Of a DNA stretch of 64,000 nucleotides, positions 3,090 to 38,964 are shown in pieces (the stretch's first letter is position 1; the number at the start of each line of letters is the position of its first letter). Where the stretch lies: the NCBI RefSeq assembly GCF_963921235.1, contig NC_086097.1, positions 137,890,001 to 137,954,000 of the forward strand, given 5' to 3'. The notes beneath the pieces are model-generated. The model searched no databases, was not told the DNA's origin, and saw nothing but the letters and a program-made list of their open reading frames with translations. The translations under genes were made by a program, and so were the position numbers. This DNA comes from Mobula hypostoma (taxonomy: Eukaryota).

Positions 3090-3192
3090 AGTTTGGAAGA
3101 TGCTAGAAGTCTGGAGCAACCCACGTAAAATGCTGGAGGCGCTCTGCAGGTTAGGCGGCTGAGACCCTTCATGAAGCATTTTGTCCGTGTTG
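3090..3192 (-). mobile_element. Degenerate Penelope-type fold-back element
   Basis: GCAACCCACGTAAAATGCT..GAGACCCTTCATG..AGCATTTTGTCCGTGTTG; homologous to 31758-31973. Confidence 0.65.
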
Positions 3193-3659
3193 GAGTACTG
3201 TCTGTAGTTTTGATCACCCTGTTATTGGAAAAAATATGGTTAAACTGGAAAGGGTGCAGAACAGGTTTCTGAGGACCTTGCCAAGGCTAGAGGGCTGGCC
3301 TTGAAGTTTAAAAGAATGAGGGTTATAAAATCAGGAGGGGCTGAGATAAGGTGGATGGAAGCAGTCTTTTCCCCATTGTTGATGAGTCCAAAACTAGGCG
3401 GTGTAGATCAAGGGTGAGCAGGAAAAGATTTAAAGGTGACCTGGGGGGAAAAACTTTTTTACATGGAGGCTGCTGAGTATGTGGAACGAGCTGCCAGAGG
3501 AAGTGGTTGAGGCAGGTATAGTAGTAGCATTTAAGAAACACTTGGATAGGCAAATGCATGGCTGGGGCTCAGAGGGACATTAGGATTAGATGGGTGGACA
3601 TGGGCTTGGCTGAGCCAAAGGTCCCGTATCTCTGCTGTATTATGTTCCATGATGTTAAA

Positions 3660-3772
3660 TAATTCAGCCTTAGAAAGAGATGTGGACAAATGGGGTTAGT
3701 GTAAATGGGCAACAGTGTTAGCATGGGTATGAAAACTGAAGAACCGGTTTCTGTGTTGTATAACTCCATAAC
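3660..3772 (+). mobile_element. CR1/HE1-type 3' tail fragment
   Basis: Ends GAAGAACCGGTTTCTGTGTTGTATAACTCCATA, a CR1-type tail. Confidence 0.5.
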
Positions 3773-3814
3773 CAACTAATCCTATACGTCCTCTGAAGGT
3801 GATGCACAGTTCCC

Positions 3815-4010
3815 ATCATTGCACTTTAATTGTCTACCTGCACTGCGCTTTCTCTGTAATTACAACACAGTATTCTGCATTCTGTTTCCTTGTTTCCCTT
3901 TTGTACTACCTCCACATTCTATGTATGAAATGATCTGTCTGGGTGGTATGCAAATTAAATCTCTTCACTGTAACTTGGTGCATGTGACTCTAATGAACCA
4001 ATGACCAATT
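3815..4010 (+). mobile_element. Rex1/Babar-like LINE 3' UTR
   Basis: TTCACTGTAACTTGGTGCATGTGAC followed by an (ACCAAT)-type tail. Confidence 0.5.
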
Positions 4011-4339
4011 AGCAGTAGGAAGCTGTTCAGTCCCTTAAGTTGCTTACACCATCCGATGACACCTTGACTGATTGGTACTTTCACTCCATTCGTCTGTCCT
4101 GGGTCCATCCCTTAAAGTTGTAACTTATCAAAATGCTGCCAGAGTCAGTGTTGAAATATCCTTTTGAGCTCCAGCAGCACGTTCCTCATTGGGACAAGTG
4201 CTCCACACGTTCCTCATCCTGAGCACACTTGGATCTTCTGGACATCAGCTCTGAGCTACCTGCTGCCAGGGTGTACTTTTGCCACATGGTCAGCTTGTTT
4301 TACTTGAGATTACAGAGGAAGGATGGTGTTAACGAATGG

Positions 4340-4545
4340 CTCTCATGGCCAGCAAAGTGATAATGAGCAGATCACTGCAGATTAAACATTGGGAAGGGCC
4401 TGAGGGAGAGTACCCAGCACTTCCAGCAGATCTGGCAGGTCTTCTGTGCCCGTCCAGAGAGGGCAGTCAGGACCTCAGCTTCAAAACTTGACGCCTTTGA
4501 CAGCTCAGCACAGCACTCAAATGTCAGTCTGGATTCTTGTGCTTA
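4340..4545 (-). mobile_element. DeuSINE-like fragment
   Basis: GTGATAATGAGCAGATC..GAGAGGGCAGTCAGGACCTCAG..TGTCAGTCTGGATT matches the other copies in the window. Confidence 0.5.
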
Positions 4546-5370
4546 GTCTCGGGGGACAAGGTCAGAATTCTCGTTTGCCTCTTTCAATACCGGATATGTT
4601 CTGTAACTGGTGGTGATAGGTTTGCCCCTGGAGGCTGGGCTCTTTGCAGTTGTTCAGACTTCCGTACAATGCCACTTTTTTTCTGGAGTATTCAGTTTCT
4701 TGTTAGCACAGGAGGTGGTCGCCTAGCCAATGAGTCCAAGAAGCTCCCGCTGGTACAATCCATCCCAATCCGTTCCAGGAAGCCCTGCAACTTACTTCAG
4801 GCCATCTGCGTTGAATTTTCTTAGTGTTTGGGCCGGAGCCAGGACTGGACGTGTTCCAGTCACAAGGTTGGGGTCCCAGTGGCTGCACCTTTTGTGGCTG
4901 AGTTGTAAATTGGTGGGAATTGTCATGGATCACAGCAGCAAAGTGGTAGGCTCTTCATTAACACTTTCAGTCAGTCTTTAAGGACAGGGCTAAATCACAG
5001 GAATAATCCAGCCATAAACAGCAAGCAAGGGCTTGGTGTCGTGAAAGATAGATGTATTATCTCCAGCAAAGGGACTGTTCTGCCCAACAGCTCTGTGCTG
5101 GCAGGCTATCTCAGCTTCTTTTACATCTCTCCCCACCACAATATCCTTCTCTTCCACTTGCCCTTCTGCTTTTCGTGCTTCCTCCTAAACCCTTTCCTGG
5201 CAATATAAACTTGAGGGAGATGTTGGGGGAAAGGAAGTTCACGGATACAGAATACAACAACATGACTCCAGGGATGAGAGACTTTGGCTTCATGTTGGAC
5301 TGGAGAAGTTCTGGTTGATGTCCCTGGAAGTGATGGAAATATTTTAAAATCCTGAAGGGAGCAGAATACC

Positions 5371-5690
5371 TTGAGAGATGCTCTCCAGATCAGGCCGCAT
5401 CTGTGGAGAGGGAAACAGAGTGATTTGAAACTTTTCATCAGAAAGGCTGCAAATTCTGATATGATCCATGACAGTGCGTGCGCTCTCTCTGTCTCTCTCT
5501 CTTTCTCGCTCTCTCTCTCTCTCTCTTTCTCTCTCTCCCCCCTCTCCCCCCTCACCTTCACTCTCTCTTCCCTCTCCCCTCACCTCTTCTATCTCCCCTC
5601 CACCTCTCTCCCTACAGATATGGTCCAACCTGATAAGTCTCTTCGGCATTGTTGGTATTTGTTTCAGATTTCCAGCACCTGCAGAATTTT
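5371..5690 (+). mobile_element. Penelope-type fold-back element with an internal CT microsatellite
   Basis: Inverted arms ATCAGGCCGCATCTGTGGAGAGGG and CTCCCTACAGATATGGTCCAACCTGAT; 3' end GATTTCCAGCACCTGCAGAATTTT; imperfect TSD GCAGAA(T)ACC. Confidence 0.65.
5484..5612. repeat. (CT)n polypyrimidine microsatellite
   Basis: Direct inspection. Confidence 0.9.
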
Positions 5691-6379
5691 GCAGAAACCA
5701 TCCCATTGGTGGATGGGCTGAGAATGCGAGCACCAAGGGGCTGCCTAAAGAACCAAATCCAATATGAGGAAGGTTGTTTTACCCAGCAAATGGCTGGGAT
5801 GAGGAACAGACTGCTAGTGGGAGCACTGTGGCAGATCCAATCACGGTGGGCAAAAGGGAGTTAGTTAGAGTCTGTAATGGAAGGATCCTGGGGGATAGGG
5901 TGGGGAGTGGGACTCCTGTATTGAACAGACAAGAGTGGAACGGATGGGTTGAATCTTTACCCATTATGAATCTGTTCTATTATTTGTCTCAGCTGCTCCT
6001 TGGGGGATTGATCCCACATTCTGACAGTGCTTGGGGAGAGATTCTAGACACTGATTTTTCTGGAAGACAGAGCCAAAATGTGGAGTGAAGGGGTGAATGG
6101 CTTCAGTGGGCTACCCCTGCCGGGGGTGACAGGACCAACTAAGAGCTAGCATCATCGCCATTTACCAGAGGCAACCTTTGCCCCACAATGTTTAAACCTA
6201 ACACTGAACTGGCAGATGAAGACTACGTTCTGAACAAGGCAGGTCAACATGGAGTCAACACGTCAACACTTGGTGGAATCACAGTACTTGGAAACTAGTA
6301 AAATGAAAGCAGATTTAATTAAAGAGTGTTGTTCATCTACAGACAATTCCCCCGGATTCCACACAGCTCAAGACCGCAC

Positions 6380-37492: not shown

Positions 37493-37499
37493 GCACACA

Positions 37500-37530
<31 letters not shown>

Positions 37531-37575
37531 GCGCACACACTCTCTGTCTCTCACACACACACACACACGCACACA

Positions 37576-37613
<38 letters not shown>
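36182..37613. repeat. 1.4-kb compound (CA)n/(CT)n microsatellite
   Basis: Direct inspection; it explains the His/Thr and Cys/Val ORFs. Confidence 0.97.
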
Positions 37614-37614
<1 letters not shown>

Positions 37615-37799
37615 CTCCAACCATAGGACAGATCTGGGCCTCCAGCCTCGAGTGAACTCACAGACTCAGAGGCTTCTGACTTTGCCAGCGGACTCGCAGA
37701 CTTATAGTCCCAGGGTTTTGGCTATTGAGACTTGATGCCCAGACTTCCAATTGACTTTTGGGCTTTGATCTTTGATATCGACCCCAGGATTCACTGATG

Positions 37800-38330
37800 A
37801 CGAGACCCCAAACTCCAGGCTCACTGATGATGCATGCATGTTGGGGACGATGAACCTTTGCTGCATTCTCTCCATCGCGAGAACATCCTCCCTTAGATAA
37901 GGAGGCCAAAACTGCACACGATACTCTCCAAAGTCCAGTGTAATTGCAGTAGAACATCCTCACTCCTGTAGTCAAATCTTGCTCTGAAAGCGTACACACC
38001 TTTGTAACCACCCGCTTTACATCCCTTGACACCGGACACCAAGGTTTCATAGCACCTCTCATGTTCGTAAACTTTTGCTGTTCACATAATAAGCTGCAAC
38101 ACACTATCACCAAAAAAATTCCAATAAATTTCTCTTGCATTATTTCTGTTTCAAAAATTCATATTAAAAAATCACTTGAAAAATCTGAAAAATCACTTTT
38201 AAACTCCTCTAAGCTCCAGTGTGTATTGACCCAACCTGCTCAACCGTTCCTCATAAGACAACCCTCTGTCCCAGGAATCACTTTAATGCCTTTTCCTTGC
38301 TCCAGTCTCACATTCCTTGTCTTGAATTAG
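37800..38330 (-). mobile_element. Old CR1 fragments
   Basis: QFWPPYLREDVLAMERMQQRF. Confidence 0.65.
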
Positions 38331-38362
38331 TTATCCTGCAGCAAAAGAGATTTACTTTTTCT

Positions 38363-38417
38363 AAAACAACACACACAAAAGTTGCTTGAAATTCCAGCAT
38401 CTGCAGATTTCCTCGTG
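38363..38417 (+). mobile_element. Ultra-short Penelope-type insertion with an inverted 5' stub
   Basis: 12-bp TSD TTTACTTTTTCT (38351-38362 and 38418-38429); CAACACACACAAAA followed by GTTGCTTGAAATTCCAGCATCTGCAGATTTCC. Confidence 0.8.
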
Positions 38418-38964
38418 TTTACTTTTTCTTAAGTTGTGCACTAAATCAAATTATTGACCTTAAGCTTCCCATATATAATTTTCCTTTTTGTTCTTCTATG
38501 TTGGAGTTGGTAGTTGTTTATTAAGCACCAGCCCCTGGAGTATATTCCAGGGATATTTTGGAAGCTCATCATATGTGTTGTGTATGTGGTCTGGTTACAT
38601 AACAATGCTATTAATTAAAACGCTGGAGATGGGAGCTAAGGTTCATGGTTCTTTACTGGCAGAAACCGAACTCGACACACATGTACAGATCAATATTCTC
38701 CTAATAGTGCATTCAACGACGTGTTACTAAAACATAAAGTAGTCCCTTATTATACTGTGGGCTATACGGTACATTATGGATATCATGAGCCACATCTATA
38801 ATACCACATAAATAGTGCCCTTTGTATTCTTGGTGAAATCACAGATGTTTCCTTCTGACAATGTAAAGAGAGCAAATTCTTACCGAGTTTAGTTTCGGTG
38901 TCACTGCCCTCAGTGAGCAGCCCATTATTGCCCATTTCTCTGTTCATCCCTTCAACCCCAGTCT

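What the first reader, a model, noticed from the sequence alone, without database searches (positions are those of the whole stretch)
3090..38429. Abundant family of short fold-back, hammerhead-bearing retro-insertions with 10-16 bp TSDs
Seen: at least seven related 55-320 bp insertions (3090, 5371, 13908, 14709, 29388, 31758, 38363) in about 36 kb. Five have clear TSDs of 14, 12, 10, 16 and 12 bp, and most consist of one 3' terminal segment plus an inverted truncated copy. The better copies carry AGTC-CTGAYGA-stem II-GAAACGTC-GACT at the fold. Known: Penelope-like elements carry minimal type I hammerheads with a palindromic stem III that cleave as dimers, and often have inverted truncated pseudo-LTRs. 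Inference: no coding sequence accompanies any copy here, so these are either a non-autonomous retrozyme/SINE-like family or extreme Penelope truncation products. Transcription through them would yield long dsRNA hairpins with ribozyme motifs on both strands.
Basis: partly seen in the sequence, partly recalled or inferred. Interest (0 to 1): 0.75.

Follow-up and report, generated by a model that had tools for sequence, protein, structure and literature searches.

The report
Fold-back stumps of Penelope retroelements
The seven short insertions are real but are dead, broken-off ends of a very abundant Penelope-type jumping gene, laid down in the mirror-image pattern already described for that class, and none of them still carries a complete ribozyme core, so the finding is mostly ordinary.

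Summary
All seven insertions exist and are related; five have target-site duplications of 14, 12, 10 (one mismatch), 16 and 12 bp. They are pieces of one ~139-nt unit: a minimal type I hammerhead, a body, and an optional ~40-nt tail. Six of seven have two head-to-head arms, and in all six exactly one arm bears the tail, which is the published signature of Penelope-like element (PLE) insertions. Public-run contigs show that the family does have GAAA, is enormously amplified in at least three organisms, continues upstream into a conserved pyrimidine-rich sequence, and has many private fold junctions, so the palindrome is made anew at each insertion and is not a propagated unit. Retrozyme, SINE and MITE tests failed. 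The coding master could not be fetched here. The scan has noted this pattern before, in this genome and in shark genomes. Residual interest: the stumps record how PLEs build inverted ends, and arm 5' ends cluster at the hammerhead's 5' edge.

The parts
3084..3192 (-). Old two-armed stump in a CR1-like LINE fragment; tail-bearing arm inverted with an internal deletion of most of the hammerhead, short second arm without tail; no convincing TSD
5371..5695 (+). Oldest two-armed stump; inverted tail-less arm (5371-~5445), (TC)n expansion, sense arm with tail (~5600-5695); no TSD; right edge approximate
13894..13907 (.). 14-bp TSD, left copy
13908..14117 (+). Fold-back stump: inverted tail-less arm plus sense arm with tail; hammerhead broken in both arms
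14118..14131 (.). 14-bp TSD, right copy
14697..14708 (.). 12-bp TSD, left copy
14709..14894 (+). Fold-back stump: inverted tail-less arm (unit positions 1-70) plus sense arm with tail (positions 14 to about 135)
14743..14778 (-). Full-length minimal hammerhead relic with G12 changed to A (AAAA instead of GAAA)
14895..14906 (.). 12-bp TSD, right copy
29378..29387 (.). 10-bp TSD, left copy (one mismatch to right copy)
29388..29442 (+). Single 55-bp arm (positions 40 to about 97), no hammerhead, no tail, inserted in a CR1-like LINE
29443..29452 (.). 10-bp TSD, right copy
31742..31757 (.). 16-bp TSD, left copy
31758..31877 (-). Inverted arm of the youngest stump, with the ~40-nt tail (31758-~31796) and a ~20-nt deletion removing stem II
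31878..31973 (+). Sense arm of the youngest stump (unit positions 1-96), no tail
31878..31913 (+). Full-length minimal type I hammerhead relic: stem I 31878-81/31910-13, CTGACGA 31882-88, extra A, stem II 31890-93/31898-901, GATA 31902-05 (family has GAAA), palindromic ACGT 31905-08, predicted cut after 31909
31974..31989 (.). 16-bp TSD, right copy
38351..38362 (.). 12-bp TSD, left copy
38363..38417 (+). 55-bp stump: inverted tail-less arm (positions 79-98) joined through a 6-nt overlap to a sense arm that is almost only the tail; no hammerhead
38418..38429 (.). 12-bp TSD, right copy

Best explanation
These are dead-on-arrival, extremely 5'-truncated insertions of the terminal repeat (pLTR plus tail) of a highly amplified endonuclease-bearing Penelope-like retrotransposon in a cartilaginous-fish-type genome. 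Shown: the anatomy (TSDs, head-to-head arms, one tail per insertion, private junctions, family-level minimal hammerhead, upstream continuation of the family). Inferred: the element's GIY-YIG endonuclease nicks both strands of AT-rich DNA 10-16 bp apart; each 3' end primes reverse transcription on uncleaved element RNA, one at the tail end (position ~139) and one at a start ~40 nt further in (position ~100); both cDNAs stop early and are joined through a few complementary bases, giving a head-to-head palindrome between a TSD; later point mutation and deletions at the palindrome centre erase the hammerhead. The hammerhead belongs to the parent element's RNA cycle and is a passenger in these copies.
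For: Exactly one tail in 6 of 6 two-armed insertions (1/64 if each arm had the tail at even odds, my arithmetic), as in the Craig et al. 2021 figure legend (PMC8557442, passages). Two family 3' ends about 40 nt apart in public contigs: heterogeneous A-rich loose ends before 31796-31798 (X1 191, X5 173-186, X12 29 contigs) and before 31758 (X12 9). Frangieh et al. 2024 (PMC11167929, parts 1-2 of 4 read): a lizard PLE protein nicks and extends both strands, prefers AT-rich targets, starts at two adjacent sites that define the tail, and uses uncleaved RNA. TSDs are 70% A+T against 56% background. Inverted pLTR + tail + 8-10-bp TSD and solo pLTRs in rotifer PLEs (PMC3846280, passages and Discussion). 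The family continues 5' of the hammerhead in one shared pyrimidine-rich consensus (loose ends before 31877: X1 125, X11 74, X12 32 contigs, agreement 0.54-0.65). Junctions are private: depth 4,057 at the fold centre (31870) against 7.4 million in the arm (31904) in X1; the 13 arm-to-arm joints among 15 rows shown (of 658) are all different, with at most 4 contigs in any run. Junction overlaps of 2-6 nt can be read at 5 of 6 folds (by eye). No arm starts at the predicted cut site (0 of 13). All four listed min-HHR traits testable on sequence are present (PMC4209133 parts 1-2 of 4).
Against: The upstream continuation is seen for only 30 letters of consensus. None of the 13 arms here clearly extends upstream of the hammerhead, and 8 of 13 start within positions 0-14, more clustered than random truncation of a kilobase-long RNA would suggest; this fits a dedicated short template as well. 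Loose ends before 31878 (X1 156, X11 107 contigs) have low agreement (0.36-0.37) and may include copies that begin there.
Confidence: 0.8

Rival explanations
1. A dedicated non-autonomous PLE derivative: a short RNA that begins at or near the hammerhead's 5' edge and consists only of pLTR plus tail is transcribed from some loci and mobilised in trans by the PLE protein; the fold-back is still made at insertion.
For: 8 of 13 arms start at positions 0-14 and none clearly goes further upstream. In 6 of the 7 arm-to-arm rows of table 5c (12 of 383 rows shown) the sense arm starts at positions 2-14. Putatively non-autonomous PLE derivatives are described (PMC8557442 passage on MRC1).
Against: The same subfamily continues upstream in a shared sequence in three runs of two organisms, and a second pyrimidine-rich upstream consensus appears in two organisms. 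No Pol III box or tRNA head in the insertions. Internal initiation at the 5' pLTR of an ordinary PLE mRNA would give the same short products (inference from PMC11167929). 12 of the 13 joints in table 5 are marked 'between: not known' and say nothing on the 5' edge.
Confidence: 0.13
2. Same parent element, but the inverted arm arises by self-priming: one cDNA folds back and copies itself (or an antisense RNA is self-primed, as Arkhipova et al. 2013 proposed), and centre deletions later blur the record.
For: Small palindromes at the junctions of 31758 and 3090; the self-priming reading is in print (PMC3846280 Discussion); arms of 31758 are 99% complementary over 74 nt.
Against: A tail-first fold-back predicts that the tailed arm reaches furthest 5'; the tail-less arm does so in 4 of 6 (5371, 13908, 14709, 38363), and in 5 of 6 each arm holds family sequence that the other lacks. 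Both-strand extension is shown in vitro. This rival concerns the joining step only and is compatible with the PLE-stump identity; its confidence is for that step.
Confidence: 0.25
3. An active retrozyme-like or fold-back (MITE-like) family that spreads as a palindromic unit and self-cleaves from both strands.
For: Hammerhead-derived sequence, very high abundance and TSDs larger than 4 bp fit the general description of animal retrozymes (PMC7229834 passages).
Against: No head-to-tail array of the unit; 0 of 8 arms with an intact core; hammerhead stems have probability 0.000 in the two fold-backs tested; junctions private; the two termini of each insertion differ and TSD length varies.
Confidence: 0.04

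Closest known systems
Complex insertions of EN+ Penelope-like elements: inverted 5'-truncated pLTR plus 30-40-bp tail (Arkhipova et al. 2013, PMC3846280, passages and Discussion read; Craig et al. 2021, PMC8557442, passages read; Goubert et al. 2022, PMC8969392, passages read)
   Same: Head-to-head inverted terminal repeats, tail on one end only, variable TSD, palindromes at the junction, solo pLTRs.
   Different: Here the whole insertion is only 55-325 bp with no ORF between the arms; TSDs are 10-16 bp against 8-10 bp in the rotifer passages; abundance is far higher.
Poseidon element of Anolis carolinensis, PAc (Frangieh et al. 2024, PMC11167929, parts 1-2 of 4 read)
   Same: Two reverse-transcription starts defining the tail, AT-rich targets, both strands extended, uncleaved RNA as template, hammerhead near the repeat's 5' part.
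   Different: No open ATG frame starting at stem II was found in the young subfamily (protein searches 35 and 50 empty); the sequence at the inner start is GU-rich on the hammerhead strand rather than AC-rich; clade (Poseidon or Neptune) not determined here.
Minimal hammerheads (min-HHR) of metazoan PLEs (Cervera and De la Pena 2014, PMC4209133, parts 1-2 of 4 read; review PMC6765202, passages)
   Same: Type I, short stem I (4 bp), extra base between positions 9 and 10.1, G10.1-C11.1 pair, palindromic 15.2-16.2 with no loop 3; mostly found as single motifs from truncated PLEs.
   Different: Stem II is 4 bp plus a 4-nt loop, shorter than the 7-8 bp described for Schistosoma; every copy in this window is mutated or deleted in the core.
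Animal non-LTR retrozymes (Cervera and De la Pena 2020, PMC7229834, passages; Li et al. 2026, bioRxiv 10.64898/2026.07.22.740005, parts 1-3 of 5 read)
   Same: Non-coding, hammerhead-bearing, related to PLE pLTRs; reported for one chondrichthyan genome.
   Different: Retrozymes are head-to-tail tandems with at least two complete hammerheads; these are head-to-head stumps with none complete.

Membership tests
EN+ Penelope-like element insertion | RT plus GIY-YIG ORF in the parent element | tested here: inconclusive
   No such ORF among 66 of 80 window ORFs scanned; protein searches empty; genome not held. Earlier scan notes assert the link but I could not check it.
EN+ Penelope-like element insertion | Inverted 5'-truncated terminal repeat, head-to-head | tested here: met
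   6 of 7 insertions
EN+ Penelope-like element insertion | 30-40-bp tail at one end only | tested here: met
   6 of 6 two-armed insertions; two family ends about 40 nt apart in contigs
EN+ Penelope-like element insertion | Short variable TSD at AT-rich targets, no poly(A) end | tested here: met
   5 of 7 with 10-16-bp TSD, 70% A+T; no poly(A) at any arm end
EN+ Penelope-like element insertion | Hammerhead in the terminal repeat | tested here: met
   Family level: 31904 reads A in over 99% of depth in all four runs; a loose-end consensus in X11 gives an intact CUGAUGA-stem II-GAA
Minimal hammerhead (min-HHR) | Intact CUGANGA and GAAA core in the individual copies | tested here: not met
   0 of 8 arms reaching into the motif; met only by the family majority
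Minimal hammerhead (min-HHR) | Extra base 9/10.1, G10.1-C11.1, palindromic 15.2-16.2 | tested here: met
   C11.1 is T in the 31758 copy but C in the 14709 copy and in the X11 loose end
Minimal hammerhead (min-HHR) | Covariation in stems across a family alignment | not tested
   Only two full-length motifs in the window; no genomic set could be fetched
Minimal hammerhead (min-HHR) | Self-cleavage as a dimer or with protein help | not testable with these tools
   Needs an in vitro assay
Animal non-LTR retrozyme | Head-to-tail tandem with at least two complete hammerheads | tested here: not met
   No tandem array of the unit among 15 TRF rows; arms are head-to-head and broken
Animal non-LTR retrozyme | Unit-length circular RNA | not testable with these tools
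   Only contigs were available
SINE (Pol III) | tRNA-derived head with B box | tested here: not met
   No tRNA; 22 B-box-like matches against 24.6 expected, none inside an insertion
MITE / fold-back DNA transposon | Identical terminal inverted repeats, fixed TSD length, shared internal structure among copies | tested here: not met
   Termini differ by the tail, TSD 10-16 bp, junctions private

The most novel reading that the evidence does not exclude
The stumps are a genomic record, in very large numbers, of twin-primed reverse transcription by a PLE on a short RNA whose 5' end is set at the hammerhead's 5' edge (a transcription start or a splice-acceptor-linked boundary); that short RNA may be a separately transcribed, non-autonomous ~140-nt mini-element. 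If so, young copies would allow the open question of how PLEs make inverted ends and tails (two primed cDNAs against self-priming) to be settled from genome data alone.
Probability: 0.2. Interest if true: 0.5.

Novelty: new member of a known kind. Interest (0 to 1): 0.2.

Why it matters
As a kind it is known: truncated PLE ends with an inverted arm, a one-sided tail and a minimal hammerhead are in print. Its value is practical. Such stumps look like MITEs, SINEs or microRNA hairpins (Rfam's weak hits on two of them are miRNA models) and will be misannotated. And because the family is so amplified, its youngest stumps are natural replicates for testing the step of PLE integration that the in vitro study left open (second-strand synthesis and formation of inverted ends).

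Tried and rejected
Rfam scan to E 10: 8 matches, all far below gathering scores, no hammerhead family. Whole genome not held. Pattern scans of viral contigs and metagenome contigs found nothing; a second metagenome scan gave two 22-base chance matches in GC-rich bacterial DNA, L001 and L002, dropped. No match among phages. Two protein searches with arm translations, longer proteins only: 1 and 16 candidates, none at E 0.01; weak evidence. Pfam on 66 of 80 ORFs: LINE endonuclease/RT and ALKBH8_N hits, no GIY-YIG; shorter or broken frames were not scanned. No RNA holder was listed as on record; run X12 is only guessed to be RNA, its contigs hold the family sequence, and it has no cover on the unique flank 32174-32500, which is no evidence either way; no editing or small-RNA test was possible. 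Empty-site test for 31758: organism B carries the element end next to the right flank; in organism D one contig starts at the first base of the right TSD with 3 unaligned letters, a weak hint of an empty site only (records 32 and 16). Paralogue alignments gave a clean empty site only for 29388, 1 of 7. A possible degenerate 5-6-bp duplication at 3090 is not distinguishable from chance. For the unmodified 31758 motif the monomer prefers an inactive hairpin (-10.0) over the hammerhead fold (-6.0 kcal/mol), and a 6-bp self-complementary duplex over the cut site (-7.5) outcompetes the 4-bp helix III (-1.7); computed only. Paper searches that found no description of this family in rays: 'Penelope'+'Mobula' 0 papers; 'Penelope'+'hammerhead'+'shark' 4, none relevant; searches likewise; Repbase, Dfam and subscription journals were not searchable, and Lunse et al. 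(PMC5785218) was not held, so it is cited only through the review PMC6765202.
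Full report
Setting. The first 42 kb of the window are repeat-rich vertebrate-type DNA with LINE endonuclease/RT frames; 42.2-64 kb is a 33-bp satellite. Earlier scan notes call this a ray genome; that agrees with my recall of these repeats but was not tested here.

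Observation. All seven insertions are present and related. A profile from their 13 arms recovers these loci and nothing else above noise (shuffles at most 6.0 bits). Five TSDs are confirmed at 14, 12, 10 (one mismatch), 16 and 12 bp; 0 of 300 random zone pairs reach a score of 12, 1 of 300 reaches 10 and 7 of 300 reach 8. The weakest, at 29388, is backed by a paralogous LINE that spans the site with a single 65-nt gap, equal to insert plus duplication. No convincing TSD remains at 3090 or 5371. The copies fall into two or three subfamilies of different age.

Anatomy. Numbering from 31878, the unit is about 139 nt: hammerhead at 1-36, a pyrimidine tract ending in AG at about 37-50, a body, a hairpin at 79-100, and a tail at about 101-139. 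Six of seven insertions have two arms joined head-to-head with their 3' ends facing the flanks. In all six exactly one arm has the tail; the single-armed 29388 has none. Eight of 13 arms begin at positions 0-14, the others at about 40, 41, 79, 79 and 95; none begins at the predicted cut (32/33) and none clearly extends upstream of position 1 (the 5371 junction is unresolved). Overlaps of 2-6 nt can be read by eye at five of six junctions.

The ribozyme claim. The two full-length motifs read GATA (31902-31905) and AAAA (14709, minus) at the GAAA box; the other six arms that reach into the motif are truncated or deleted there. A core scan finds 2 matches in the window, both outside the insertions, against 1.6 expected. 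Rfam gives no hammerhead match to E 10. Only 13908, 14709 and 31758 fold as long hairpins beyond shuffles, and in the two tested the hammerhead stems have probability 0.000 inside the fold-back (about 0.05 in the isolated 31758 arm). At family level the core is intact: position 31904 reads A in 7,387,309 of 7,412,939 depth units in X1 and in over 99% in X5, X11 and X12, and an X11 loose-end consensus shows CUGAUGA, stem II and GAA. The family motif has the traits listed for PLE minimal hammerheads by Cervera and De la Pena 2014.

Family-wide view from public contigs (window 31250-32500; four runs of organisms A, B, D and A). Summed depth is 1.9-11.5 million over the element in X1 against 9-31 in the unique flank; the tool warns that this is no copy number, but it shows very large amplification in all three organisms. 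Loose ends with heterogeneous A-rich flanks pile up at 31796-31798 and at 31758, that is at unit positions 99-101 and 139: two 3' ends about 40 nt apart. Loose ends before 31877 share one pyrimidine-rich consensus in X1, X11 and X12, and those before 31878 a second, less uniform one in X1 and X11 (24 of 2,462 rows shown): the family does not begin at the hammerhead. The fold centre is private: depth 4,057 at 31870 against 7.4 million in the arm, and the 13 arm-to-arm joints shown (15 of 658 rows, some of them in the LINE flank) all differ, with at most four contigs in a run. Twelve of those 13 are marked 'between: not known' and so say nothing about where sense arms start; in table 5c (12 of 383 rows shown) six of seven arm-to-arm rows start at positions 2-14.

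Mechanism. Published work on the anole PLE shows nicking and extension of both strands at AT-rich targets, initiation at two adjacent internal sites that define the tail, and use of uncleaved RNA. Inverted truncated pLTRs, a one-sided 30-40-bp tail, TSDs and solo pLTRs are described for other PLEs. I infer that each nicked strand primes one cDNA, one from the tail end and one from the inner start, that both stop early and are joined by short complementarity, and that the palindrome then decays at its centre. The TSDs are 70% A+T against 56%. Self-priming, proposed in 2013, is the rival for the joining step; against it, the tail-less arm reaches further 5' in four of six insertions and in five of six each arm holds sequence the other lacks, though deletions after insertion could mimic this. 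The clustering of 5' ends at the hammerhead edge is unexplained; it could mark the 5' end of the parent mRNA (initiation at the 5' pLTR would give such short products), an acceptor-like site just before stem I as described for the Drosophila virilis intron, or a dedicated short RNA. These are inferences from a small sample.

What could not be shown. No RT or GIY-YIG sequence was linked to the unit here (collection scans gave nothing usable). Earlier scan notes from this genome say the motif lies just behind the coding part of an abundant PLE, which I could not check. Expression, editing and cleavage were not testable. Supplements of the cited papers were not read; the bioRxiv retrozyme paper's supplement, which lists families for its one chondrichthyan genome, could bear on whether this family is already catalogued.

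Comparison and verdict. It works like, and by four of five tested features is, a set of truncated EN+ PLE insertions; the ORF feature is inconclusive. It fails the definitions of retrozyme, SINE and MITE. PLE expansion in a shark genome is in print (bioRxiv 10.1101/443036, passages). My searches found no paper describing this particular family, but repeat databases were not searchable. The scan has recorded the same pattern in shark genomes and the same family many times in this genome. Novelty: new member of a known kind. Interest 0.2.

Noticed in passing
window 31914-31932 and homologous sites in 5371, 13908, 14709, 29388: A pyrimidine tract ending in YAG and followed (in most arms) by ATG lies just behind the hammerhead in all 9 arms that cover it (12-14 pyrimidines of 15; 8 of 9 in the truncated 29388), across subfamilies only 50-70% alike. 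It looks like a conserved splice acceptor that would place the ribozyme at the end of an intron; the upstream loose-end consensus ends in a second acceptor-like site just before stem I.
   Followed up: partly
window 42207-64000: A 33-bp satellite of about 662 copies, 85% matches, running to the window end, with strong C skew.
   Followed up: no
window 36200-37612: A 1.4-kb degenerate (CA)n array.
   Followed up: no
window 18346-20965 (+): A fairly intact LINE: 534-aa frame with endonuclease and start of RT, followed by a 204-aa RT frame; its 3' part served as the empty-site reference for 29388.
   Followed up: partly
window 5475-5600: A (TC)n / pyrimidine expansion of about 130-150 nt sits between the two arms of the 5371 copy, apparently grown from the element's own pyrimidine tract.
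   Followed up: no
window 31860-31877, 13985-14002, 3140-3172, 5415-5445: Deletions in four inverted arms all fall in the hammerhead at the palindrome centre; in 31758 the lost ~20 nt are stem II, bounded by a 3-nt direct repeat.
   Followed up: partly
window 14733-14806 and 13944-14058: The fold-backs give weak matches to miRNA precursor models (best 35.5 bits against a gathering score of 88), a likely source of false miRNA annotation.
   Followed up: no
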